From contig CALNXW010000016.1 of NCBI GenBank assembly GCA_942490685.1, forward strand, positions 3,197,166-3,261,165: a stretch of 64,000 nt of DNA, read 5' to 3'. Below, one piece after another: positions 15,452 to 46,678 of the stretch. Position numbers and translations under genes: made by a program. The stretch's first letter is position 1; each line of letters starts with the position of its first letter. The notes below the pieces were generated by a model that had not been told where the DNA came from, did no database searches, and worked only from the letters and a program-made list of their open reading frames with translations. Origin of the DNA: an uncultured bacterium (GTDB taxonomy: Bacteria; Bacteroidota; Ignavibacteria; Kapaibacteriales; UBA2268).

Positions 15452-15490
15452 TATTCAATCACCTATCCGATTTAAGAAATTCTCCGAAAG

Positions 15491-15514
15491 CAATACTCTT
15501 ATCTGCTATAACGG
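15491..15514 (+). repeat. Short fragment of repeat module X (tail portion CAAT.CTCTTATCTGCTATAA.CG)
   Basis: 21 of 23 positions match the 3' part of X2 (27911-27933). Confidence 0.45.
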
Positions 15515-15658
15515 ACAACTTAATATACAATTTTCAAATGAATATCTGTAATAAAAAAAAGGCAGACTGCGGCATTAATGCAACTTGTTTTTACTTAGTT
15601 TGTTAGCTATATTAAAACTAGATTATAAACTGAAAAGCAGTCGAATTTAAATCTGGTT

Positions 15659-15799
15659 TATGCCGGACAGGTTCGCCAATGAAATAGACGCAAAACCACG
15701 GTACTGCATCTCAACGCGCTTTCTCTCGCTCGATAACCAAGGGAAGATGAGATTGCGGGATTGGGGAATAGCCTGAATTTTGGTGCTAGGCAGTATGAT
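15659..15799 (+). repeat. Repeat module Y, copy 1 (non-coding, about 140 bp), upstream leader of a small two-gene cassette
   Basis: Left flank (ATGCCGGACAGGTTCGCCAATGAA) and right flank (GGGAAGATGA.ATTGCGGG..TGGGGAATAGCCTGA.TTTTG.TG.AGGCAGTATGAT) are collinear with the reverse complement of 27640-27792. The core (15699-15742) matches the other copy only after inversion. Confidence 0.7.
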
Positions 15800-15855
15800 A
15801 GTAGAATAGCGAGATTTAACTCTCTTGACAGTTATAGAAGCAAATATACTTCTCA

Positions 15856-16192
15856 ATGTCAGTGATGCTAACTGAGGGGCCAGAAGCCGCTGGTAAAACT
15901 GCTGCAAAAATTGATGCTATAATAAAAAAGATGTCAGAAGCTGAAGTGCAAATGGGTATTGATCAGGGAAAGGCTACTGTAAACGTGATTGCTGAGTTGG
16001 TTCGTTATTTGGTCCAGCTGGAACTGCAACTGGAGCACTTATAGGAGGTATTTCTGATTCATTATTTGGAGGAGTAACAGGTTATTTTGTTGGACAAGAA
16101 GTTGCAACTACAGCATATGATTATATCACAACTAAAGGTCTCAAAATGGAAGATGTAAAGAATAGTAATGAGGGAGAAAAAAATGCACCATA
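15856..16192 (+). pseudogene. Frameshifted glycine-zipper (GxxxG-rich) small protein gene
   Basis: Frame A gives MSVMLTEGPEAAGKTAAKIDAIIKK...NVIAELV. Frame +1 continues as GSLFGPAGTATGALIGGISDSLFGGVTGYFVGQEV...EGEKNAP*. A single-nucleotide indel near 15995-16010 would join the two frames. Confidence 0.4.
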
Positions 16193-16572
16193 AATTTGAT
16201 AAGATTTTTTGGCGAATAGAAAACGAAACATATTTGCATGCTCTTTTTGTAAATAGTCGTTCAAATGAAATAGTGCATTTTAAACATGGAACATTTGAAT
16301 TGCAATCGACAAATATTATAAAAGGAAGTCATAACTGGGAAGAAATCCTTTATGATAATGCTATAGTTGAGATTAGAGTTAATGAAGAGTCGAATATATT
16401 TATTATGTTTTCAGACGCAGCTCTGGGAGTGATTATGTATTGTCCATATTTTGATGGAGCGGAGGTAGAAGTAATACAGGAACTTAATATTTATAACAAA
16501 GAGGATAAAGAGGCGTATATTTCTTTTTTGGAAGATTATGATAGCTGTGATATCGAACTAGAGATAAGTTAG
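16168..16572 (+). CDS. Hypothetical 134-aa cytoplasmic protein overlapping the end of the glycine-zipper ORF (possibly an immunity-like partner)
   Basis: The ORF overlaps the upstream stop (…AATGCACCATAA…). No signal peptide. No recognisable family. Confidence 0.45.
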   Translation: MREKKMHHKFDKIFWRIENETYLHALFVNSRSNEIVHFKHGTFELQSTNIIKGSHNWEEILYDNAIVEIRVNEESNIFIMFSDAALGVIMYCPYFDGAEVEVIQELNIYNKEDKEAYISFLEDYDSCDIELEIS

Positions 16573-20489: not shown

Positions 20490-21545
20490 GTGGGAGGTTT
20501 ATTAATGTTTCGGTTTGAACATGTAGAACTATTATGGCTATTGGCAGTGCTTCCCGCTTTCTATTTCTTATACGTATTATTTAGATGGAAGCGCAAAAAA
20601 ACTCTTGAGAAATTTGGCGACTTGGAAACTGTAGCTCGCCTTATGCCTAACACATCAAAATATAAGCCGACTGTAAAGATGATACTTTTCCTTTTTGCCT
20701 CGGCTTTATTCATCGTAGGGATGGCAAACCCTCAATTTGGAACTAAACTCCAGGAAGTAAAACGTCAGGGCGTGGAAGTAATGATCGCTCTCGACGTTTC
20801 AAACTCTATGCTTGCAGAGGATTTAAAACCTAACAGACTCCAAAGAGCAAAACAAGCTGTCAGCAGACTTATTGACAAATTAGAAACTGACAGAATAGGC
20901 ATCGTTGTTTTTGCAGGTGACGCATATTTACAGCTGCCTTTAACAACTGACTATGCTGCCGCTAAACTTCTTCTTTCCAGTATCACAACTGATATGATTG
21001 AAACTCAGGGAACAGCCCTCGGAGCTGCAATCGAAATGTCAATGGATTCGTTTTCTGAAGATAATAAAAAACAGAAGGCGCTCATTATCATCTCCGATGG
21101 AGAGAATCATGAAGATGATGCATTAAGCATGGCAAAAAATGCTTTAGAAAATAATATTATCATCCATACCATAGGCATGGGACTTGAAGACGGAGCTCCA
21201 ATTCCAATATACAGGAATGGTGATATCGCTTCTTATTATAAAGACAGCGATGGTAATACTGTAATTTCTAAATTGAATGCCGGGATGCTATCTCAATTGG
21301 CTGAAGTTGCAGGCGGTAGATTTACCCGTGCAACACTGGCAAATATGGAATTATCAGAATTGCTTGATGAAATTGCAGGCATGGAAAAACAGGAATTTGG
21401 AACAAAAGAATATACAGATTATGTTAGCAGATATATGTATTTCATACTTCCTGCACTTTTAATATTTATTTTTGAATTTATGCTTTCTGAGTCAAAAAAC
21501 AGACTTCTTACTTCTATGAATCTATTTGGAGGAGAAGGAAAATGA
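20490..21545 (+). CDS. batA: BatA/BatB-like von Willebrand factor A domain membrane protein
   Basis: N-terminal TM segments. VWA domain with MIALDVSNSM (MIDAS-type DxSxS). Confidence 0.85.
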   Translation: MGGLLMFRFEHVELLWLLAVLPAFYFLYVLFRWKRKKTLEKFGDLETVARLMPNTSKYKPTVKMILFLFASALFIVGMANPQFGTKLQEVKRQGVEVMIALDVSNSMLAEDLKPNRLQRAKQAVSRLIDKLETDRIGIVVFAGDAYLQLPLTTDYAAAKLLLSSITTDMIETQGTALGAAIEMSMDSFSEDNKKQKALIIISDGENHEDDALSMAKNALENNIIIHTIGMGLEDGAPIPIYRNGDIASYYKDSDGNTVISKLNAGMLSQLAEVAGGRFTRATLANMELSELLDEIAGMEKQEFGTKEYTDYVSRYMYFILPALLIFIFEFMLSESKNRLLTSMNLFGGEGK

Positions 21546-22456
21546 GACTAAATACAATCCTTAAAAATACATTTGTTATTACATCTATATTTTTTGCTTC
21601 TTTTTGTGCAACTTTTGCGGATAAAACCGAACATACTCATTTAGAAAAGGGTAATAAACTCTATGAAGAACAGAAGTATGAAGATGCAGAAATGGAGTAC
21701 AGAAAAGCTAAAGAAGCCAAACACGAATCGCAAATGGCAAAATTCAATATAGGTGATGCTCTTTATAAACAAGAAAAATATAAAGAAGCTGCTGAGATTT
21801 TTGAGAATCTAACTAATGAAGACCTGGATGATCAAACAAAAGCCTCTGCTTTTCACAATCTTGGTAATTCTCTTTTGAAACAACAGGATTTCAACACGAG
21901 TATTGATGCTTATAAAAAAGCATTAAAACTTAACCCGGATGACGATGAAGCAAGGTATAATCTTGAATATGCTAAAGCAATGTTAAAACAACAGCAACAA
22001 CAACAGCAACAAAATCAAGATAACAAAGACCAGAAAGATAAAGACAAACAAGATCAACAAAACAAAGATCAAAAGGATAAAGATAAACAGGAACAGGATA
22101 AAAAAGACCAAAACGAACAAGATAAGAAGAATCAACAAAAGCAGGATCAGCAAAACAAAGATCAGAAGGATAAAGACAAAAAAGATCAGCAAAAGCAAGA
22201 CCAACAAAACAAAGACAAAAACGAACAGGATAAGCAGGAACAAGATAAAAAAGATCAACAGCAAGGCGAACAAAATAAAGACCAGAAAGGAAATAAAGAG
22301 CAACAAAAACCACAACGTAAGAAAAATGAGCTTTCAAAAGAAGACGCCGAGCGTATGCTTAAAGCCTTAGAGAATGAAGAAAAGAAAATTCAGAAGAAAA
22401 TACAATTCAAAAAAGGCAAAAAAGGCGAAGAAACAAATATAGAGAAGAATTGGTAA
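21542..22456 (+). CDS. batC: BatC-like TPR protein with a long Q/K/D-rich low-complexity tail
   Basis: TPR-like N-terminal half, then about 100 aa of (QDKKDQQNK)-like imperfect repeats. Overlaps the batA stop by 4 nt. Confidence 0.75.
   Translation: MRLNTILKNTFVITSIFFASFCATFADKTEHTHLEKGNKLYEEQKYEDAEMEYRKAKEAKHESQMAKFNIGDALYKQEKYKEAAEIFENLTNEDLDDQTKASAFHNLGNSLLKQQDFNTSIDAYKKALKLNPDDDEARYNLEYAKAMLKQQQQQQQQNQDNKDQKDKDKQDQQNKDQKDKDKQEQDKKDQNEQDKKNQQKQDQQNKDQKDKDKKDQQKQDQQNKDKNEQDKQEQDKKDQQQGEQNKDQKGNKEQQKPQRKKNELSKEDAERMLKALENEEKKIQKKIQFKKGKKGEETNIEKNW
21990..22290 (+). repeat. Imperfect tandem codon repeats encoding the Q/K/D-rich tail of BatC
   Basis: Seen directly: reiterated CAAGATAA/CAAAGATCA/AAGGATAAAGA units of about 27 nt. 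Confidence 0.7.
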
Positions 22457-25089: not shown

Positions 25090-25136
25090 AAAGGCTCCGG
25101 CTTATCAATAAGTTGGAGCTTTTCTTGTATGTATTA
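25090..25136 (+). terminator. Rho-independent terminator after the bat operon
   Basis: AAGGCTCC-ggcttatcaataagtt-GGAGCTTT followed by a T-rich run. Confidence 0.55.
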
Positions 25137-25208
25137 TGATGAAGCTTTAGAATATCGGATTTGTCATTAGCTGATAGCATTTTCTAAAATCAGTGACTTT
25201 AAAACGCT

Positions 25209-25236
25209 GTTTTGCGACTATTTCATTGGCGCATCG
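25209..25236 (-). repeat. Fragment of repeat module Y (left-flank portion only)
   Basis: GTTTTGCGACTATTTCATTGGCGCATCG matches the reverse complement of Y1 15666-15694 (CGCCAATGAAATAGACGCAAAAC). Confidence 0.5.
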
Positions 25237-25279
25237 TATCTATAGTCTTTATAAAAGGTTTCTTACTTTTTATCTTAAA

Positions 25280-25386
25280 GGATTCCGAATCAAGTTCGGA
25301 ATGACAGTGCTGGTCATTGCGGACTTGACCCGCAATCCCTTAATCTGCTATAAGCGTGCCACGCGCCCTGCTGCCTTTTGCCTGGG
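25280..25386 (+). repeat. Repeat module X, copy 1 (about 105 bp; the first 60 nt fold as a tRNA-like cloverleaf)
   Basis: Closing stem GGATT/AATCC encloses three hairpins (CCGAA-tcaag-TTCGG, AATGAC-agtgctg-GTCATT, GCGGA-cttga-CCCGC). About 90% identical to 27856-27958 in direct orientation. A T-G wobble change in X2 preserves hairpin 1. Confidence 0.7.
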
Positions 25387-25472
25387 ATAATGGAAAAAAT
25401 AAATTTTCAAAGAACTTGAAAAAACCTTAATTAAAAGCATCATAAATGCAAAAACAATATTTATGTATTATC

Positions 25473-26123
25473 TTAACTATTTCTTACCGGCACCAAATCA
25501 TCCCATTTATTTTGCTTGTCTTCTAATAAGATATTTTTCAACTCATTATTCACATATATTTTATTATATGAAACCCAATTTATTCCATAAGTCTCTGCTG
25601 ATCTTACTATTGGAAGAGTGACTTCTTCTTTAAATGCCGGAATAAAATCATCACGAATAGGATTGAATTTCTTTGTCCCACATACATCACAAGTTTCTTC
25701 CACATATTTATCAATGTCAATTGGATATCTTAATCTTGGAATTCCCAGCTGTAATATCTCATCAAATGGAGTGTCTTTTTTATGATTTATAACTTCACGG
25801 TTACCAATACCTAGTGGTTCTAATCTTTTTAAGTAATATTCTTTCTCCACAAAAAGCGTATCAGATTCCCATGTTGCAGAAAAAAACTTATTCTTTTTCA
25901 ACGAAGGTATTTTTGACAATCTAAAAGGGTTAATTTGATGTTTACTGGATTTACAGTTTGGACAAAGACTTTTATCAAATACATTTTTTTCATATTCATA
26001 ATCTCCATCAGGCATAGGAAAACCACATTCTCTATAACGCCAAAACCATACATAATTAGCTTCTAATACTTCTTTTTTAGAAAACTCTGCAATAACCCTT
26101 ATATAAGAGTCTTTACCTGTCAT
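25473..26123 (-). CDS. Hypothetical 216-aa protein with two CxxC pairs (CPNC...CDVC, zinc-ribbon-like)
   Basis: The ATG at 26123-26121 overlaps (TGATG) the reconstructed end of the upstream 46-aa ORF. No recognisable family. Confidence 0.55.
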   Translation of the reverse strand: MTGKDSYIRVIAEFSKKEVLEANYVWFWRYRECGFPMPDGDYEYEKNVFDKSLCPNCKSSKHQINPFRLSKIPSLKKNKFFSATWESDTLFVEKEYYLKRLEPLGIGNREVINHKKDTPFDEILQLGIPRLRYPIDIDKYVEETCDVCGTKKFNPIRDDFIPAFKEEVTLPIVRSAETYGINWVSYNKIYVNNELKNILLEDKQNKWDDLVPVRNS

Positions 26124-26164
26124 CAAGTTATCTTTATGTAACGTCCTAAAATAAGTTGACAGAT

Positions 26165-27028
26165 TTAATTATCAAAATAATCCCTGGTAAAATTTTTATC
26201 GGGGATTTTATGTATATAATCTGGAGTCATCATTTTTAAAGCTAAATGAGGTCTATAAGAATTATAAAGTTCAATAGCTTCTCTTACAATGTATTCCGCC
26301 TGCAAGATTGATTTGAGTTTACCATCTAAATAAAATTCTTCCTTGATAGTTCTATTCATTCTTTCTGCAAGTGCATTCTCATATGGATCGTACTGCTCTG
26401 TCATGCTGATTTTGATATTGTTTCTTTTCGCTGTTTCAGTATAGTCATGGCTGCAAAATTGCAACCCTCTATCAGAATGGTGTATCAAGGTTCTATTTTG
26501 ATAACAACGGTTCTGAATAGCCATTTTAAGAGCTTTCAGAGATTCTTCAGCTCTCATATTGTCTGCTAAATTAAATCCCATTATTCGCCTTGAAAATGCA
26601 TCTGTTATAAGAGTTAAATAGCAATTTCCCTCATCTGTTTTCAAGTATGTTATATCACTTACCCAAACCTGTTCAGGAGCTGTCGCATTCATATCTTTTA
26701 CAATATTTGGATACTTTCTTAACCAGTGCTTGGACATAGTAGTCTGAATGTATCTTTTTCGAGCTCTAATAAGTAAATTTGCATCACGTAATATGCTAAA
26801 CAGCTTGTCTCTTCCACACTTTATACCAAGTTCATCTAGTTTAGGACTTATAAGAAAATATAGCTTTCTTGTGCCTATACGCGGCAGTATCTTACGATGT
26901 TTACATACCTCCGCTACTATCTTTGAATACTCTTGCTTCTTAGATTGTTGATGTAATTGCTTATAATAATTTTGTCTGCTATAGCCTAATATCGTACATA
27001 CTTTACTTACTGTTGTTCTTGCTGTTTT
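26165..27028 (-). CDS. IS3 transposase OrfB (DDE/rve integrase core), expressed by a -1 frameshift from orfA
   Basis: The -1 frame is open from the GAAGAAAAAC slippery run (...YQRRKTARTTVSKVCTILGYSRQNYYKQ...) and continues into the 190-aa ORF MSKHWLRKYPN...HHSDRGLQFCS...E with the rve catalytic region. Confidence 0.8.
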   Translation of the reverse strand, partial: KTARTTVSKVCTILGYSRQNYYKQLHQQSKKQEYSKIVAEVCKHRKILPRIGTRKLYFLISPKLDELGIKCGRDKLFSILRDANLLIRARKRYIQTTMSKHWLRKYPNIVKDMNATAPEQVWVSDITYLKTDEGNCYLTLITDAFSRRIMGFNLADNMRAEESLKALKMAIQNRCYQNRTLIHHSDRGLQFCSHDYTETAKRNNIKISMTEQYDPYENALAERMNRTIKEEFYLDGKLKSILQAEYIVREAIELYNSYRPHLALKMMTPDYIHKIPDKNFTRDYFDN

Positions 27029-27426
27029 TCTTCTTTGATAATCTTGTACGATTCGGCTAAGTACTTTTTTCTAATATTCGTATCAAACATTTCGTCGGCT
27101 ACATCTATGGCCTTGTTTAAGATTTCCTTGTCTAACTCTAATTCCTTTATACGCTTTTCTAGAGCTTTTATCTGCTTATTAGGTACAGGTTTCTTTTTCA
27201 TATTGACCTCTGCTTGCCAGTTTAATCTACCGTGCTTTCTTAACCATACTAAAACAGTTGCACGACCTTGAATGCCGTATTTCCGTTGAGCTTGTTTGTA
27301 GGTTAAGTAGCCTTTTTCTACTTCATCTACTACCTGCAATTTGAAAGCCAAACTATAATCTTTTTGAGTACGCTTGATTTTTACTGCGTTTTGTTGTGAT
27401 TCCATTATACCATCCTTTTGTGTCAA
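27007..27426 (-). CDS. IS3 transposase OrfA (HTH)
   Basis: HTH region YSLAFKLQVVDEVEKGYLTYKQAQRKYGIQ, followed by a leucine-zipper-like KALEKRIKELELDKEIL. The probable real start is MESQQN. Confidence 0.85.
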   Translation of the reverse strand: MTQKDGIMESQQNAVKIKRTQKDYSLAFKLQVVDEVEKGYLTYKQAQRKYGIQGRATVLVWLRKHGRLNWQAEVNMKKKPVPNKQIKALEKRIKELELDKEILNKAIDVADEMFDTNIRKKYLAESYKIIKEEKQQEQQ

Positions 27427-27448
27427 CTCTTTTTAGGACGGGGCATTA

Positions 27449-27576
27449 TGCTCTTTAAAAAAATCTAAAGGAACTTTGATTGAAGAGTCTTTTTTTAGTT
27501 TGATACCATGAGATTTAATATATTCTTTTTTTTCATCAATCTCATGGCGAGTATATACTATTACCAATTTTTCCAT
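27449..27576 (-). pseudogene. Small ORF (46 aa before insertion) whose 3' end is cut by the IS3 insertion
   Basis: MEKLVIVYTRHEIDEKKEYIKSHGIKLKKDSSIKVPLDFFKEH, then it reads into the IS IRR. Removing the IS and one TTA copy restores ...KEHKIT* with its TGA overlapping the ATG of the 216-aa gene. Confidence 0.55.
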
Positions 27577-27639
27577 TTTTACATTCCTATTTTATCAAGA
27601 TTAGCAAATATAATCTTTGATGATTTTGGCAGTAACGCG

Positions 27640-27792
27640 ATCATACTGCCTTACAGCAAAAATCAGGCTATTCCCCAGCCCCGCAATTTCATCTTCCCGC
27701 TCCATGCCGTTACACTTCGACTCGCTTTGCTCGCTCAGTGACCTTGAAGCGTGGTCTGGCGTATTCTTCATTGGCGAACCTGTCCGGCATGA
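27640..27792 (-). repeat. Repeat module Y, copy 2 (reverse orientation), immediately 5' of the 46-aa ORF
   Basis: See Y1. Its own conserved right flank contains a GGCAGTA-tgatcgcgt-TACTGCC hairpin. The core (27698-27754) is inverted relative to Y1. Confidence 0.7.
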
Positions 27793-27855
27793 GCATACCA
27801 AAGAGGCGCGCCTCATGGGGAAGTAGTTGTTACGTGAAAGAACTTTTAGCCTGAA

Positions 27856-27958
27856 GGATTTCGAATCAAGTTCGGAATGACAGTGCTGGTCATTGCGGGC
27901 TTGACCCGCAATCTCTTATCTGCTATAAGCGTACACGCCCTGTGCTGCCTTTTGCCTG
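27856..27958 (+). repeat. Repeat module X, copy 2
   Basis: Direct repeat of 25280-25386. Confidence 0.7.
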
Positions 27959-27985
27959 AGCTATTTGGGAAATACAGTTTAAAAT

Positions 27986-28037
27986 ACAAAAAAAAGGATG
28001 TGATTCAAAAATAGTTATATCTTTAAAAATCACATCC
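27986..28037 (-). terminator. Rho-independent terminator downstream of the TonB-dependent receptor
   Basis: Minus strand reads GGATGTGATT-(loop)-AATCACATCC followed by T8. Confidence 0.7.
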
Positions 28038-28125
28038 TGATATTTTTTCTATTGAAACAAATGAAGCAGAGTTTATTCTATCTTACTGTTTCTTTTGTAT
28101 AAGTTTTAAAACAAAAACTACATTT

Positions 28126-30513
28126 CTACAATCCTAACTGAAAACCGATAAAGACACTTCTCTCTGCAGCAGGGAAAAAGAATCTTCCTTCTGCGCCGGC
28201 TGCATAAAGTTTGTTAAACAAGTTTACAACCTGAGTATGTATTTTGAAGCTTTCTGCACCTAGAATATCTTCGAATGTATATGCTACATCCAGATTAAAG
28301 ACCATAAAAGCGTCTAAAGTATTATCAATATAAAACTCTGAGCTTTCCTTTAAGTCTTTCATTATCACTTCGTCAGTAGTCAGCATATCTCCGTAGTTAT
28401 CAGTTTTCGAATCACCCAAGTATCTGCCTGACAGATTAAAGTATAAGTTTTTATATTCATAAATAAAACCAAAATTTGCCATCAAGCTAGGGAATCCTGC
28501 AATATCATTTCCCTCAAGAGATGTTTTATCGCCATTTTCAGCTAAGTAATCCCATTCCAGTATTTCATTTTTAGAAAATGTAGCATTTGCATATGGTTTT
28601 ATACTTCCCGGTATACCATCTTTAATCAGATAAGATGCCTGCAATTCTATGCCGGAGTGGCGGGTTCTCGGAGCATTGCCGTCCACAGGCAAACCAAATA
28701 TATCTAACTCACCTGTTTTCACAAGTTCATCAAAATATTCCATCCAGTACCCATTGATACTGAAGTGCACATTTTCATCTCTGTATGTCCAGCCAAGTTC
28801 AACATCCAGCATTTTCTCAGGAGTAACCGTAGGATTTTCAAAATCATAATAAATATTATCACCATCTTTTCTGGCTTCAAACAAAGGATGAGAACCTGAG
28901 AAAGAGGAAGAAGCATCATATAAGTTCTTCATGCGGGGTTCGCGAGTTGTATATGAAACTGAACCAAACATAGTTTGATTATCATCTATATTCCATGTAG
29001 CTCCCACTCTTGGATTTACAAAGAAATAGTTTATGTCAAATAACTTATCACCATTCCCAATTGTATTACCATCTTTGTCTAAGTAAGTGGAATATACTCC
29101 GCCAAACTTTTCATTGTCGATAGAGTATTTATTATATACAAATTGAGCTTCCGCACTTAGCAGCAAATCTTCTGTTGCCTGATATTGTTCACGGAAGAAG
29201 ACAGACATAATGTCTCTAATTCCGTTGTATTCATAGACTTTATAATCCGGATCAAAACCTTCCGGAAGATTCTCAGCAAAAAGTATTTTCATCCAGTGAT
29301 CGGATCTGTGGCTTCTTATTTCAGCTCCCAGAGTAAACTGATGGTCTCCATGACTCCATATCAATCTCGGGATCCAGCCCCCATGTCTGTTCCCAACATA
29401 CCATCTAGCAATTGGATTTCTAGGAACCTCTTCATCTGCATAGCCATTTGCTTCATTGAAGTTAAAGTAAGACAAATCGTACATCCAGGTGCTCAACTCA
29501 TCAAATTGGCCATCCCCTGTATAGTAAAACAGCGAAGACTTGAGTGAAAGATCATCTGAGATTTGCCAGTCATTCAACAATTCATAGTGAGGCTGAGAAA
29601 AAGCTTCTACATCATGTTTGCTTCTCTCTGTAGGCCACTGAACTACTTTTCCGGTAGAATCGTAATTCCACCAGCTATAGTTTTTAAGCCTCAAGTCTTT
29701 ATCTTCAATATGAGCTTTAGGTATCCCCTGATAGACTAACCCATCAGTTAAAGGTCCACCAAAGATATTAATCTGAGTAGTAAGGTTTTCATCAAATCTG
29801 GCTGCACTAAGGAAAAAGCTATTAAGCTTAGCCCATGAGTGATTTCTATATCCATTTGAGTTAATTCTGGATAAACGACCATAAAATGCATATTTGCCGT
29901 CAACCAAACCTGAAGAGGCTTCCATAGAGAATTTGCTTAAGCTCTGAAGTGTGTTTTTCGACTCACTTCCGTATTCCTGGTAGCCAATCCCTGAATAAAG
30001 CTTAATACCGGGATTGTTTACAAAGTTTGAAGTAACCAGATTTATGCTTCCTCCAATTGCTGCTGCACCATAATTCATCATACCTGCGCCACGCTGCACT
30101 TGGATATTTTCAAGATTTGACTGAATATCAGGAAAATCAATCCAGTATACATTATGATCTTCAGGATCATTTTGAGGAATACCATTGATCAAAACTGAAA
30201 TTCTTCTTTGGTCAAATCCCCTCATAGATAAATTAGAGTAGCCAACTCCATTACCGGATTGGGAATAAGTATGCACAGAAGGCATAGCGTTTAGGAACAT
30301 CGGAAGATCCGCAACTGTGTGCGTCATTTCTATTTCCTGTCTGTCTATTTCTGAGAATGCAACAGGCGTTATTCTTTCTACTGCACGAGTAGAAGTAACA
30401 GTAACGCTTGGCGTTCGGTATACTTTTATAGTATCAGATGTTTGTTTTTGAGCAAAAAGGCTTATAGAAAAGCAGCTTAAAGCTGCAGCGGCTATAAACA
30501 ATCTTTTTAGCAT
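28126..30513 (-). CDS. TonB-dependent outer-membrane receptor
   Basis: Signal peptide MLKRLFIAAAALSCFSISLFA (start placed at this Met). Plug-domain motifs and a C-terminal beta-barrel ending in an aromatic residue. Confidence 0.85.
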   Translation of the reverse strand: MLKRLFIAAAALSCFSISLFAQKQTSDTIKVYRTPSVTVTSTRAVERITPVAFSEIDRQEIEMTHTVADLPMFLNAMPSVHTYSQSGNGVGYSNLSMRGFDQRRISVLINGIPQNDPEDHNVYWIDFPDIQSNLENIQVQRGAGMMNYGAAAIGGSINLVTSNFVNNPGIKLYSGIGYQEYGSESKNTLQSLSKFSMEASSGLVDGKYAFYGRLSRINSNGYRNHSWAKLNSFFLSAARFDENLTTQINIFGGPLTDGLVYQGIPKAHIEDKDLRLKNYSWWNYDSTGKVVQWPTERSKHDVEAFSQPHYELLNDWQISDDLSLKSSLFYYTGDGQFDELSTWMYDLSYFNFNEANGYADEEVPRNPIARWYVGNRHGGWIPRLIWSHGDHQFTLGAEIRSHRSDHWMKILFAENLPEGFDPDYKVYEYNGIRDIMSVFFREQYQATEDLLLSAEAQFVYNKYSIDNEKFGGVYSTYLDKDGNTIGNGDKLFDINYFFVNPRVGATWNIDDNQTMFGSVSYTTREPRMKNLYDASSSFSGSHPLFEARKDGDNIYYDFENPTVTPEKMLDVELGWTYRDENVHFSINGYWMEYFDELVKTGELDIFGLPVDGNAPRTRHSGIELQASYLIKDGIPGSIKPYANATFSKNEILEWDYLAENGDKTSLEGNDIAGFPSLMANFGFIYEYKNLYFNLSGRYLGDSKTDNYGDMLTTDEVIMKDLKESSEFYIDNTLDAFMVFNLDVAYTFEDILGAESFKIHTQVVNLFNKLYAAGAEGRFFFPAAERSVFIGFQLGL

Positions 30514-30831
30514 GGAAAAATCCTTGAATTTAATGATACAAAAGATTTTCCAATTGGGGATATGAAAAGAGAGAGCAAAAAAGCACAATAAATGAAGTGC
30601 CTTCCGTATTCCCTACGCCGGTATGATCCGGATCAGGTTCCAAGAGTGTTCTCTCAGGGGCATATTTGCCCCACCTCCAACGGAAATTGTTGCAATATAC
30701 GTAGTATTACTCTAATTATTTTGTTTATGAGTATATTCTATTGCAGGCAAGCCAAGTAAATGAGTTTTATGTAATAAAAAAGGGTAGAAAAATCTTCTTT
30801 CCCTACCCTCTCTTGATTCTATTTTTATTTT

Positions 30832-46127: not shown

Positions 46128-46195
46128 TAGTGCATTTGTTCTATGATCTTTAAGGAAAATAAAAAAAGCTAACTTGATTGCAAGTTAGCTTTGTG

Positions 46196-46267
46196 TGATC
46201 CTAGGGGGATTCGAACCCCCACTGCCAGCGTGAAAGGCTGGTGACCTAACCGTTAGTCGATAGGACC
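46196..46267 (-). tRNA. tRNA-Glu (anticodon TTC), copy 1
   Basis: Cloverleaf read by hand: acceptor GGTCCTA/TAGGATC, D-arm GAC-TAACGGTTAG-GTC, anticodon arm CCAGC-CTTTCAC-GCTGG, T-arm GGGGG-TTCGAAT-CCCCC, discriminator A. CCA is not encoded. Followed by the hairpin GCTAACTTG-caat-CAAGTTAGC and a T-run. Confidence 0.85.
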
Positions 46268-46397
46268 ATTTTGTCTGCTGTGTGTCTCTAAAAGAGAGTT
46301 CAAAAATAAGGAGTTTGTTTTAAACTTCCAAATCTTTTTTTACCTATTTACAAGGTTTTCAAAAACAAAGCTAACTTGAAATCAAGTTAGCCCTTGG

Positions 46398-46469
46398 TGA
46401 TCCTAGGGGGATTCGAACCCCCACTGCCAGCGTGAAAGGCTGGTGACCTAACCGTTAGTCGATAGGACC
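46398..46469 (-). tRNA. tRNA-Glu (anticodon TTC), copy 2
   Basis: Identical to copy 1, with its own terminator hairpin (GCTAACTTGA-tt-TCAAGTTAGC followed by Ts). Confidence 0.85.
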
Positions 46470-46678
46470 ATTTAACTGTTGTGCGTCTCTAAAAGAGAGT
46501 TCAAAAATAAGGAGTTTGTTTTAAACTTCCAAATCTTTTTTTTCAAAGAATACAATAAATCTGATATTTTAACGAAACCAATCGACCTAAGAAATTTCTT
46601 ATTTGTTGAAAATCAAGATTTTAGAAACCTCCAAAAAACAGAAGTATTCTGATAAAGCAAACAGTCAAAAGGGATAGA

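What the first reader, a model, noticed from the sequence alone, without database searches (positions are those of the whole stretch)
25209..27962. A 2.7-kb segment bracketed by direct copies of a tRNA-like cloverleaf repeat (X), carrying the Y2 cassette and an IS3
X1 (25280-25386) and X2 (27856-27958) are about 90% identical direct repeats. Their first 60 nt fold into a four-stem cloverleaf (GGATT/AATCC closing stem plus three hairpins). A T·G wobble substitution in X2 keeps hairpin 1 paired, which argues that the structure, not just the sequence, is conserved. A partial Y lies just outside X1 (25209-25236), and a partial X tail lies near Y1 at 15491-15514. X and Y are therefore modular pieces that recombine in different arrangements at three loci. 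The bracketed segment looks like an inserted or duplicated cassette, possibly with X acting as an att-like site.
Basis: partly seen in the sequence, partly recalled or inferred. Interest (0 to 1): 0.7.

Follow-up and report, generated by a model that had tools for sequence, protein, structure and literature searches.

The report
Paired hairpin repeats beside RHS-toxin remnants
The "tRNA-like cloverleaf" is two back-to-back copies of a short DNA hairpin repeat found in many unrelated bacteria (the kind Neisseria cuts with a small nuclease), duplicated here along with a dead fragment of an RHS toxin gene, so it is an ordinary repeat and not a tRNA-like integration site.

Summary
X1 and X2 are real direct repeats, 90.7% identical. 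They are neither tRNA-like nor att sites. The 60-nt "cloverleaf" is a head-to-head inverted pair of a 26-nt hairpin unit (GTCAT-T-stem-CTTGA-stem-A-ATCC). As a single strand it folds into one long hairpin (-28.5 kcal/mol); the cloverleaf scores only -9.3.

The same unit, including the exact X2 variant, occurs in more than 120 metagenome contigs (GC 26-71%), 22 viral contigs and Treponema plasmids. It lies mostly between genes and mostly in inverted pairs. Its stem covaries strongly, and its flanks YGTCA…TCCA are conserved. Those flanks match the Neisseria dRS3/NTS "Ssn-related motifs", which the GIY-YIG nuclease SsnA cuts as single-stranded DNA.

Y is a broken remnant of the RHS-toxin core domain. 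The repeated block is Y-part + spacer + X, about 205-235 nt, not X alone. On the minus strand the 2.7-kb segment reads X2', Y2', a 263-aa ORF, X1', Y-partial. An intact IS3 (1309 bp, TTA duplication) later split the ORF.

No integrase, empty site or partner nuclease gene was found. The hairpin function in this genome is inferred. Verdict: new member of a known kind, low interest.

The parts
25280..25305 (-). X1 unit A: hairpin unit read on the minus strand, GTCATTCCGAACTTGATTCGGAATCC
   Evidence: Regex and sequence. The same 25-mer occurs in metagenome contigs.
25306..25312 (.). 7-nt spacer AGTGCTG between the two inverted units; it forms the loop of the long hairpin
25313..25338 (+). X1 unit B: GTCATTGCGGACTTGACCCGCAATCC. 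Relative to unit A it carries two compensatory stem changes (C7:G21 to G7:C21, A10:T18 to G10:C18).
25340..25392 (+). X1 tail, about 53 nt and GC-rich. It contains the small hairpin CTTA(A)TCTGCTATAAG and is 81% identical to the X2 tail. Found nowhere else.
25190..25236 (-). Partial Y: decayed RHS-core remnant (..RCANEIVAKQRFKVT..) that still keeps the first 11 nt of the Z insert
27856..27881 (-). X2 unit A (GTCATTCCGAACTTGATTCGAAATCC on the minus strand)
27889..27914 (+). X2 unit B (GTCATTGCGGGCTTGACCCGCAATCT). Its first 25 nt are the commonest variant in the metagenome sample (59 of 135).
27916..27966 (+). X2 tail
27601..27850 (-). Y2: frameshifted remnant of the RHS repeat-associated core domain (LKVLSRNNYFP / FGMLMPDRFANE / NGMEREDEIAGLGNSLIFAVRQYD)
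27713..27745 (-). Z: 33-nt GC-rich insert that interrupts Y2 and shifts its frame. A related copy lies in an intergenic spacer of relative L012.
25473..26136 (-). 3' part of a 263-aa ORF of unknown function, the cargo between the two repeat copies
27449..27577 (-). 5' part of the same 263-aa ORF. The frame is restored when the IS3 and one TTA copy are removed.
26137..27445 (-). IS3-family insertion sequence, 1309 bp, with 25-nt terminal inverted repeats (TG..CA), orfA/orfB, an A6G slippery site, and TTA target duplication at 26134-26136 and 27446-27448
   Evidence: (I2).
15489..15517 (+). X remnant at locus 1. It runs from the last 5 nt of unit B into the tail; the hairpins are missing. It is inverted relative to Y1 compared with loci 2 and 3.
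15647..15865 (+). Y1: RHS-core remnant (MPDRFANEIDAKPR.. / EDEIAGLGNSLNFGARQYDSRIARFNSLD) with the Z piece probably inverted
   Evidence: (I1, I2).
15856..16572 (+). Frameshifted toxin-like tail followed by a 134-aa ORF (16168-16572). This is the rest of a decayed orphan toxin/immunity-type module after Y1.
   Evidence: The module reading is inferred; no family hit.

Best explanation
X is a mosaic extragenic repeat. Its 60-nt head is a head-to-head inverted pair of a 26-nt DNA hairpin unit: 5' flank YGTCA, a 7-bp covarying stem, loop CTTGA, 3' flank TCC. This unit belongs to the superfamily of Neisseria dRS3/NTS and "Ssn-related motifs". In that system each unit, on its own strand and as single-stranded DNA, forms a hairpin that a small GIY-YIG nuclease (SsnA) binds and cuts just upstream. 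I infer that the units here are recognition hairpins of that kind, or fossils of them. I do not think they encode an RNA or mark an attachment site.

X occurs twice because a block of about 205-235 nt was duplicated in direct orientation. The block is a broken RHS-core remnant (already carrying the Z insert), a spacer, the hairpin pair and a 50-nt tail. On the minus strand the region reads: X2' - Y2' (RHS-core remnant) - 263-aa ORF - X1' - Y-partial. That is two successive junctions of a decayed orphan RHS toxin/immunity array. An intact IS3 later inserted into the ORF.

Shown: the unit anatomy, family resemblance, covariation, wide distribution, the RHS identity of Y, the extent of the duplication, and the IS3 insertion.
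Inferred: the single-stranded-DNA and nuclease mechanism in this genome, any role in recombination, and the order of events.
For: Anatomy. Both X heads split into two units in opposite orientation around a 7-nt spacer. The minimum-energy fold is a long hairpin at -28.5 kcal/mol against -9.3 for the cloverleaf.

Family.
- A 26-nt pattern for the unit hits 6 IMG/VR contigs.
The X2 unit B variant is the commonest (59/135), and the X1 unit A and unit B variants are also present.
- At the three stem pairs the pattern left free, complementarity is near-total: 135/135, 127/135 (+7 G·T) and 125/135 (+9 G·T). Fisher p = 3e-40, 1e-5 and 1e-19.
- A core-only scan that did not fix the flanks finds GTCA upstream in 35/38 occurrences and TCCA downstream in 33/38. 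Those are the flanks of NTS, CGTCATTCC...GGAATCYRG (PMC11893778).
- Units sit in open frames of at least 120 codons in 37% of cases, against an 86% background.
- Host contigs range from 26 to 71% GC.
- Adjacent units are mostly inverted pairs: 48 tail-to-tail, 7 head-to-head, 6 direct.
- A named host is Treponema saccharophilum pTS2, where the units lie in an intergenic spacer.

Y is an RHS remnant.
- A profile of Y1, Y2 and P0001 finds 633 proteins.
- All 9 tested top hits carry TIGR03696 at the match position, 8 of them above the curated cut-off.
- A relative keeps the motif in frame, NDYYPFGMMMPD...RFGFNGMERDDE...FGARQYDSRIARW, after toxin-like and immunity-like ORFs.

Duplication. Homology runs 25190-25392 vs 27735-27966: Y-part 70%, head 95%, tail 81%.

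IS3. Inverted repeats, TTA duplication, and the ORF frame restored on excision.

Assembly. Short-read contigs of the same organism break inside X1, exactly where a k=31 assembly graph would branch at a repeat.
Against: - The literal SRM search pattern published for Ssn-related motifs matches none of these units. They fail at the first loop base, C where the pattern needs a purine.
- No GIY-YIG gene lies in the window. A crude motif screen found none in 683 kb of unit-bearing metagenome loci. An all-against-all comparison of ORFs in 142 loci found only generic recurring families. The nuclease link therefore rests on sequence resemblance and a paper, not on a partner found here.
- The window holds only four units in 64 kb, and 52 kb from three relatives holds none. 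This lineage shows no repeat expansion, and the units may be inert.
- Head-to-head pairs with a 7-nt spacer are the rarer arrangement.
- The X tail and the pair as a whole were found nowhere else.
- The cargo ORF has no known family, so calling the region an RHS cassette rests on Y alone.
Confidence: 0.72

Rival explanations
1. One reading: the 2.7-kb segment is an integrated cassette, and X1/X2 are the duplicated attachment site (attL/attR) of a site-specific recombinase that recognises a tRNA-like structure.
For: Direct repeats bracket a segment that holds a gene absent from two relatives at this position. There is a precedent for this repeat family serving as an integration target: the Ssn paper states that Neisseria dRS3 was identified as the target of a phage recombinase (PMC11893778).
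Against: - No integrase, IS110-type transposase or phage gene lies between or next to the copies. The only recombinase is an IS3 with its own inverted repeats and TTA duplication inside the cargo ORF.
- There is no tRNA or tmRNA signal.
- Homology continues outside X into a 70%-identical RHS remnant, with a 31-nt indel. That is not how att duplications look.
- A third, rearranged copy lies 10 kb away.
- The X units occur with unrelated flanks in many genomes.
Confidence: 0.04
2. X encodes a small structured RNA, or acts at the RNA level as a REP-like transcript stabiliser or terminator.
For: The 60-nt head folds much better than shuffles (z = -4.9 and -4.0). X is GC-rich (0.51-0.53) in a 0.36 genome. 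X1 lies between convergent genes. The scan lists the X2 unit B hairpin as terminator-like. From general knowledge, REP elements in E. coli are known to stabilise upstream mRNA.
Against: - No Rfam family matches, even at E<=10.
- Units occur in both orientations within one element and across loci. That fits a DNA-level signal read on either strand.
- The conserved asymmetric flanks are those of a motif shown to be bound as ssDNA and not as RNA (PMC11893778).
- The neighbouring genes have their own strong terminators: 25090-25123, and an inverted repeat followed by a T-run near 27990-28040.
Confidence: 0.1
3. X is a REPIN/MITE-like mobile pair. It was copied to each site independently by a trans-acting transposase (RAYT/IS200-like or other), so its position next to the RHS remnants is target choice.
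For: Inverted pairs are the usual form of this unit (55 of 61 adjacent pairs), as in REPINs. The head is far better conserved (95%) than its surroundings (30-81%). The unit is spread across contigs of 26-71% GC.
Against: - The flanks of X1 and X2 are themselves homologous on both sides: a 12-nt left flank, the Y-part, and the tail. The two copies therefore arose by duplication of a larger block.
- No target-site duplication is visible.
- No Y1-transposase or other candidate was found in the window or recurring near units.
- The exact pair centre is absent from 185,579 species genomes and from the metagenome collection.
Confidence: 0.1

Closest known systems
Neisseria dRS3 / NTS and Ssn-related motifs (SRM), targets of the GIY-YIG single-strand DNA nuclease SsnA (PMC11893778)
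   Same: Both are oriented hairpin repeats with the same outer sequence: NTS is CGTCATTCC-stem/loop-GGAATCYRG, and many family members here read CGTCATTCC-GGGCTTGACC-GGAATCCAG. The base after the palindrome is C, and GTC precedes it; these are the positions the paper found critical for binding and cutting. Both are extragenic, multi-copy, occur in both orientations, and are spread across phyla. In Neisseria they cluster near variable genes.
   Different: The inner stem and loop differ: a 7-bp stem with a conserved CTTGA loop here, against CCCGCG-MAV-CGCGGG in NTS. The published SRM search pattern does not match. No ssnA-type gene was found near any copy examined. The window has only four units, not hundreds.
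REP / BIME elements and REPINs (inverted REP pairs mobilised by RAYT transposases; from general knowledge, Bertels & Rainey 2011)
   Same: Short GC-rich extragenic palindromes with an orientation-giving flank, usually arranged as inverted pairs that can fold into one long hairpin. That is exactly the X head.
   Different: The consensus is different. No RAYT is nearby. X1 and X2 share homologous flanks, so they were not inserted independently.
Neisseria intergenic mosaic elements (NIMEs: dRS3 units alternating with other short repeat modules; from general knowledge, Parkhill et al. 2000)
   Same: A mosaic of hairpin units with other GC-rich modules. Here these are the X tail and the Z piece. 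The IMG/VR contigs L151 and L161 show arrays of units mixed with a Z-related module.
   Different: In the window the mosaic is minimal: one pair plus one tail per copy.
Orphan Rhs toxin/immunity modules preceded by a fragment of the rhs core (PMC3150448, PMC3967940)
   Same: Y is a core-end fragment (YYPFG ... FGAR.YD ... RF.S.D) placed upstream of small ORFs, repeated in tandem, and near a rearrangement-prone spot.
   Different: The core fragments are frameshifted and interrupted by Z. The toxin part is missing at locus 3 and frameshifted at locus 1. No full-length rhs gene lies in the window. The cargo ORFs have no known family.
tRNA genes as att sites of integrative elements
   Same: Only the picture of direct repeats bracketing a segment.
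   Different: There is no tRNA signal, no integrase, a 5-bp-stem 60-nt drawing that is not the stable fold, and homology that extends beyond the repeat.

Membership tests
NTS / Ssn-related motif (SRM) hairpin repeats | Oriented 5' flank (C)GTCA immediately before the palindrome | tested here: met
   All four window units start with GTCATT. In a scan that did not fix the flanks, 35/38 family members have GTCA upstream, with C or T before it.
NTS / Ssn-related motif (SRM) hairpin repeats | Semi-palindrome forming a hairpin, kept by compensatory change | tested here: met
   Three free stem pairs covary: Fisher p = 3e-40, 1e-5, 1e-19. Within X, units A and B differ by two compensatory pairs.
NTS / Ssn-related motif (SRM) hairpin repeats | Cytosine right after the palindrome (3' flank TCY) | tested here: met
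   The 3' flank is TCC in 33-34 of 38 unbiased occurrences. Window units end in AATCC or AATCT.
NTS / Ssn-related motif (SRM) hairpin repeats | Match to the published degenerate SRM search sequence HGTCWYN(0-2)YYVSBRHN(0-5)WNVSBRGN(0-2)RNCYNB | tested here: not met
   No match in the window or in ten loci of related, viral-contig and relative sequence. By hand parsing, the failure is at the first loop base (C instead of purine).
NTS / Ssn-related motif (SRM) hairpin repeats | A cd10448 GIY-YIG (ssnA) gene in the genome, often flanked by the motif | tested here: inconclusive
   None in the 64-kb window. A crude motif screen and ORF clustering found none in unit-bearing loci. The rest of the source genome could not be read.
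NTS / Ssn-related motif (SRM) hairpin repeats | Binding and cleavage as single-stranded DNA by the cognate nuclease | not testable with these tools
   Needs biochemistry.
REPIN (inverted REP pair mobilised by RAYT) | Two inverted copies of a palindromic unit, a short spacer, and a long-hairpin fold | tested here: met
REPIN (inverted REP pair mobilised by RAYT) | Many dispersed copies of the pair with unrelated flanks, plus a RAYT gene | tested here: not met
   The pair centre is absent from the genome and metagenome collections. X1 and X2 share their flanks. No transposase other than the IS3 is present.
tRNA / tRNA-like element | Cloverleaf recognised by tRNA or tmRNA models | tested here: not met
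   ARAGORN finds only two tRNA-Glu genes, at 46.2 and 46.4 kb. Rfam finds nothing at X, even at E<=10. The cloverleaf is 19-20 kcal/mol less stable than the minimum-energy fold.
Integrated element with att repeats | A site-specific recombinase inside or beside the bracketed segment, and repeats confined to the att core | tested here: not met
   The ORF inventory is given. Homology extends about 90 nt beyond X on one side.
RHS repeat-associated core domain (TIGR03696), for Y | Sequence match to the core-end motif | tested here: met
   Y1 alone scores E = 0.002-0.004, below the cut-off as expected for a fragment. The relative's intact fragment scores E = 1.2e-5. The profile search retrieves RHS-core proteins in 9/9 cases checked.
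IS3 family insertion sequence | orfA/orfB with a slippery site, DDE (rve) domain, TG..CA inverted repeats, 3-bp target duplication | tested here: met
   NF033516 scores 3.9e-57 and PF00665 5.2e-24.

The most novel reading that the evidence does not exclude
The CTTGA-loop hairpins are a distinct, undescribed branch of the Ssn-type motifs with their own partner protein. The published search pattern misses them, and no GIY-YIG gene was seen near them. On this reading, their placement as a pair exactly at the 5' edge of RHS-core homology is functional: nicking of the extruded or single-stranded hairpins would start recombination that swaps or duplicates toxin/immunity cassettes. This would parallel NTS/dRS3 around variable genes in Neisseria.
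Probability: 0.08. Interest if true: 0.55.

Novelty: new member of a known kind. Interest (0 to 1): 0.22.

Why it matters
The main value is as a correction. A striking "tRNA-like cloverleaf bracketing a cassette" turns out to be two inverted copies of a common extragenic hairpin repeat. Their conserved flanks, facing each other, create the extra stems.

Three smaller points follow:
- This hairpin family, with NTS-type flanks and a conserved CTTGA loop, is widespread. It occurs in contigs of 26-71% GC, in phage-like contigs, in Treponema plasmids and in an Ignavibacteria-like genome. The published SRM search pattern still misses it, so censuses of Ssn-related motifs probably undercount.
- Here it travels with a fossil RHS-core fragment, which echoes the association of such repeats with variable loci in Neisseria.
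- Short-read assemblies of this organism break exactly at X, a practical reason to annotate such repeats.

Tried and rejected
- Searching for other X copies by translating X: no candidates.
- Scanning 185,579 species genomes for TTCGGAATGAC-N7-GTCATTGCGG: only two chance hits, both inside coding sequence. The source genome is evidently not searchable there.
- Scanning metagenomes for the 21-nt pair centre: zero hits.
- Scanning viral contigs for head-to-head pairs: only simple palindromes, with no unit structure.
- Looking for an empty site. The two relatives found through the BatE-like protein (83% and 72% identity) share the nrfAH-Bat block but carry unrelated genes after it, so there is no comparable site.
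- An inversion of the nrf-Bat block between the inverted Y copies. The 155-aa neighbours in the window and in L012 are not homologous, so this has no support.
- A partner gene for the hairpins. There is no GIY-YIG ORF in the window. A motif screen of 120 loci found nothing. No ORF is sandwiched between units. ORF clustering over 872 kb gave only ABC ATPases, SDRs, HAD hydrolases and lysozymes.
- A general link between the hairpins and RHS genes: no RHS-core motif in the 120 metagenome loci. The link is local to this window.
- The function of the 263-aa ORF. There is no significant Pfam hit (one sub-threshold zf-UDP match, E = 0.006), no NCBIfam hit, no PDB hit, and one 27%-identical hypothetical protein on an Arthrobacter plasmid in an uninformative neighbourhood.
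- Rfam at a permissive threshold over 25100-28050: only two chance-level matches, both away from X.

Full report
**1. The observation**

A 43-nt core occurs twice in the window with at most one mismatch, and never in 100 shuffles. Alignment gives 97/107 identical columns (90.7%) for 25280-25386 against 27856-27960. The 60-nt head is 95% identical and the tail 81%. The partial Y next to X1 (I place it at 25190-25236), the partial X tail near Y1 (15489-15517) and the IS3 are all real.

The cloverleaf is not real.
- ViennaRNA folds the head into one long imperfect hairpin, at -28.5 kcal/mol for X1 and -25.6 for X2.
- The four-stem drawing evaluates to -9.3 and -5.5 kcal/mol, with an ensemble probability near 1e-14. 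DNA parameters give the same picture.
- ARAGORN and Rfam see no tRNA or known RNA family at X, even at E<=10.
- The three substitutions between the two heads fit both folds, so they cannot decide between them.

**2. What the X head is**

Read on the appropriate strand, each head contains two copies of one 26-nt unit in opposite orientation around a 7-nt spacer:
- unit A, minus strand: GTCATTCCGAACTTGATTCGGAATCC;
- unit B, plus strand: GTCATTGCGGACTTGACCCGCAATCC.

Each unit is a 7-bp hairpin with loop CTTGA, flanked by GTCA on the 5' side and TCC on the 3' side. "Hairpin 2" (ATGAC/GTCAT) and the "closing stem" (GGATT/AATCC) are simply the conserved flanks of two inverted units facing each other. 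Units A and B differ by two compensatory pairs, C:G to G:C and A:T to G:C.

**3. The unit is a widespread repeat**

Distribution:
- A 26-nt pattern found it in 6 IMG/VR contigs, often with further units nearby in alternating orientation.
- The commonest variant there (59 of 135) is identical to X2 unit B. The X1 unit B and unit A variants also occur.

Covariation: that pattern left three stem pairs free to mismatch, yet they are complementary in 135/135, 127/135 (+7 G·T) and 125/135 (+9 G·T) occurrences. Fisher p = 3e-40, 1e-5 and 1e-19.

Flanks: a core-only scan that did not fix the flanks shows GTCA upstream in 35/38 and TCCA downstream in 33/38.

Setting:
- Units are depleted from long open frames, 37% against an 86% background.
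- Their host contigs span 26-71% GC.
- Adjacent units are mostly inverted pairs: 48 tail-to-tail, 7 head-to-head as in X, and 6 direct.
- A named host is Treponema saccharophilum plasmid pTS2, where a tail-to-tail pair lies in an intergenic spacer.

Homology between X and all these loci stops at the unit, 27-40 nt. The pair centre and the 50-nt tail were found nowhere else.

**4. Closest known system**

A full-text search for the flank sequence led to Chenal et al. 2025 (PMC11893778).
- The Neisseria dRS3 repeat (ATTCCC-N8-GGGAAT) is part of a 28-nt oriented hairpin, NTS (CGTCATTCCCGCGMAVGCGGGAATCYRG).
- The 94-aa GIY-YIG nuclease SsnA binds NTS only as single-stranded DNA and cuts a few bases upstream.
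- The C after the palindrome is critical for binding, and the three bases before it for cutting.
- Related "Ssn-related motifs" occur across phyla.

Many members of the family found here read CGTCATTCC-GGGCTTGACC-GGAATCCAG. The outer nine bases on each side are the same as in NTS, and only the inner stem and loop differ.

The literal published SRM pattern does not match these units; by hand parsing they fail at the first loop base. I found no GIY-YIG gene in the window and none near units elsewhere. I also found no recurring neighbour gene of any specific kind. I therefore file the units as a new member of this known kind of repeat. The nuclease mechanism in this genome is inferred, not shown. 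REP/BIME/REPIN elements are the other close analogue: inverted pairs folding as one long hairpin.

**5. What Y is**

Translated on the minus strand, Y2 reads LKVLSRNNYFP / FGMLMPDRFANE / NGMEREDEIAGLGNSLIFAVRQYD across frameshifts. Y1, on the plus strand, reads EDEIAGLGNSLNFGARQYDSRIARFNSLD. Evidence that this is an RHS remnant:
- Y1 gives a weak, single hit to TIGR03696, the RHS repeat-associated core domain (E = 0.002-0.004).
- The one close database relative (P0001) lies in a related genome, in frame as NDYYPFGMMMPD...RFGFNGMERDDE...FGARQYDSRIARW. It follows a toxin-like and an immunity-like ORF and scores E = 1.2e-5 against the same model.
- A profile of the three fragments retrieved 633 proteins. 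All 9 top hits tested carry TIGR03696 exactly where the profile matches, either at the N-terminus of 200-400-aa proteins or near the C-terminus of 1,800-2,700-aa proteins.

Y is therefore a remnant of the RHS core end, the piece that precedes orphan toxin/immunity modules (PMC3150448, PMC3967940).

It is dead. A 33-nt GC-rich piece, Z, replaces five bases and shifts the frame in Y2. Z is probably inverted in Y1 (7/1000 shuffles reach the score). Its first 11 nt survive in the partial Y. All three Y copies thus descend from one already-broken remnant. Z-like sequence also occurs in an intergenic spacer of a relative (L012), and in viral-contig arrays that mix it with the hairpin units.

**6. 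What the 2.7-kb segment is**

The repeated block is not X alone. Homology runs from 25190 to 25392 against 27735 to 27966: Y-part 70%, spacer with a 31-nt indel, head 95%, tail 81%. On the minus strand the order is X2' - Y2' - 263-aa ORF - X1' - Y-partial.

The ORF is split by a 1309-bp IS3. The IS3 has 25-nt TG..CA inverted repeats, orfA/orfB with an A6G slippery site, and a TTA target duplication. Removing the IS3 and one TTA restores a 263-aa frame. The ORF matches no known family.

No integrase or phage gene is present. GC content is 0.51-0.53 in X and 0.50 in Y2, against 0.36 for the window and 0.30 for the cargo ORF. A GC-rich rhs core is a familiar pattern (general knowledge).

The best reading is a decayed tandem array of orphan RHS-type junctions, each headed by the hairpin pair, later hit by an IS3. 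Both neighbouring genes have their own terminators, so X is not needed for termination.

**7. Comparison with relatives**

The 100%-identical BatE-like protein sits on a 3.28-Mb NCBI contig that the tools do not expose. Homologues of this protein are named Ignavibacteria or Bacteroidota in the sources.

Relatives at 83% and 72% identity share the upstream Bat block, and L012 also shares nrfAH. Both have unrelated genes immediately after the BatE-like gene. The position is a synteny breakpoint, and no empty site can be scored.

Two short-read contigs of the same organism end inside X1. One ends at exactly the base where a k=31 assembly graph would branch because of X2.

**8. Verdict**

The repeats are real, but the tRNA-like and att-site interpretation is not supported. 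X is a pair of NTS/SRM-like extragenic hairpins plus a private tail. It was duplicated together with a fossil RHS-core fragment, and the IS3 is a later, independent insertion.

Novelty is modest: a CTTGA-loop branch of a known repeat superfamily that the published search pattern misses. The most novel reading still open is that the hairpin pair drives cassette exchange through single-strand nicking. It is possible but unsupported; I estimate its probability at about 0.08.

Noticed in passing
window 27713-27745 (minus strand); 15703-15737; 25190-25200; L012 19674-19707; L151 4500-4600: A second small GC-rich module, Z (AAGGTCACTGAGCGAGCAAAGCGAGTCGAAGTG), interrupts the RHS-core remnant. It recurs in an intergenic spacer of a related genome. 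Its 15-nt core also appears in viral-contig arrays that alternate it with the hairpin units. This looks like a NIME/BIME-type mosaic repertoire.
   Followed up: partly
L151 3858-6411; L161 1042-6072 with L156 869-935 (one IMG/VR contig, 3300003667_000196): Two IMG/VR contigs carry 6 or more direct copies each of the hairpin unit (CGTCATTCCGGGCTTGACCCGGAATCCA), spaced about 30-2,200 nt apart. The copies are embedded in long open frames that translate as PRHSGLDPES / HVIPGLTRNP repeats.
   Followed up: no
window 26137-27445: The IS3-family element looks intact: orfA, orfB, A6G frameshift site, 25-nt inverted repeats, TTA duplication. It is probably a recent, active insertion.
   Followed up: yes
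window 15856-16572: After Y1 comes a frameshifted toxin-like tail with a glycine-zipper-like stretch (GALIGGISDSLFGGVTGYFVG), then a 134-aa ORF with no family. This is probably a decayed orphan toxin/immunity pair.
   Followed up: partly
window 30592-30688 (minus strand) with 28126-30588: A TPP riboswitch (70 bits) lies directly upstream of a TonB-dependent receptor gene, which suggests thiamine-regulated uptake.
   Followed up: no
window 46161-46542: Two tRNA-Glu(TTC) genes lie in a tandem duplication of about 201 nt (93-94% identical), including about 70 nt next to each tRNA gene.
   Followed up: no
window 21948-22304: A coding repeat with spacings that are multiples of 3 nt (9, 15, 24, 39) lies inside the ORF 21542-22456 of the Bat operon (13 overlapping copies at 61-71% identity).
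   Followed up: no
window 15660-15800 vs 27640-27790 and 25190-25236: Y1 is inverted relative to Y2 and the partial Y, and the nrfAH-GWxTD-BatA-E block lies between Y1 and the partial Y. These inverted repeats could mediate inversion of about 9.5 kb. The one test tried, neighbour homology with L012, gave no support.
   Followed up: partly
L162 1430-1530 (Treponema saccharophilum pTS2, 301.7 kb): An intergenic tail-to-tail pair of the same hairpin family. One unit carries a nested extra hairpin in its loop. The two T. saccharophilum plasmids together hold 9 matches.
   Followed up: partly
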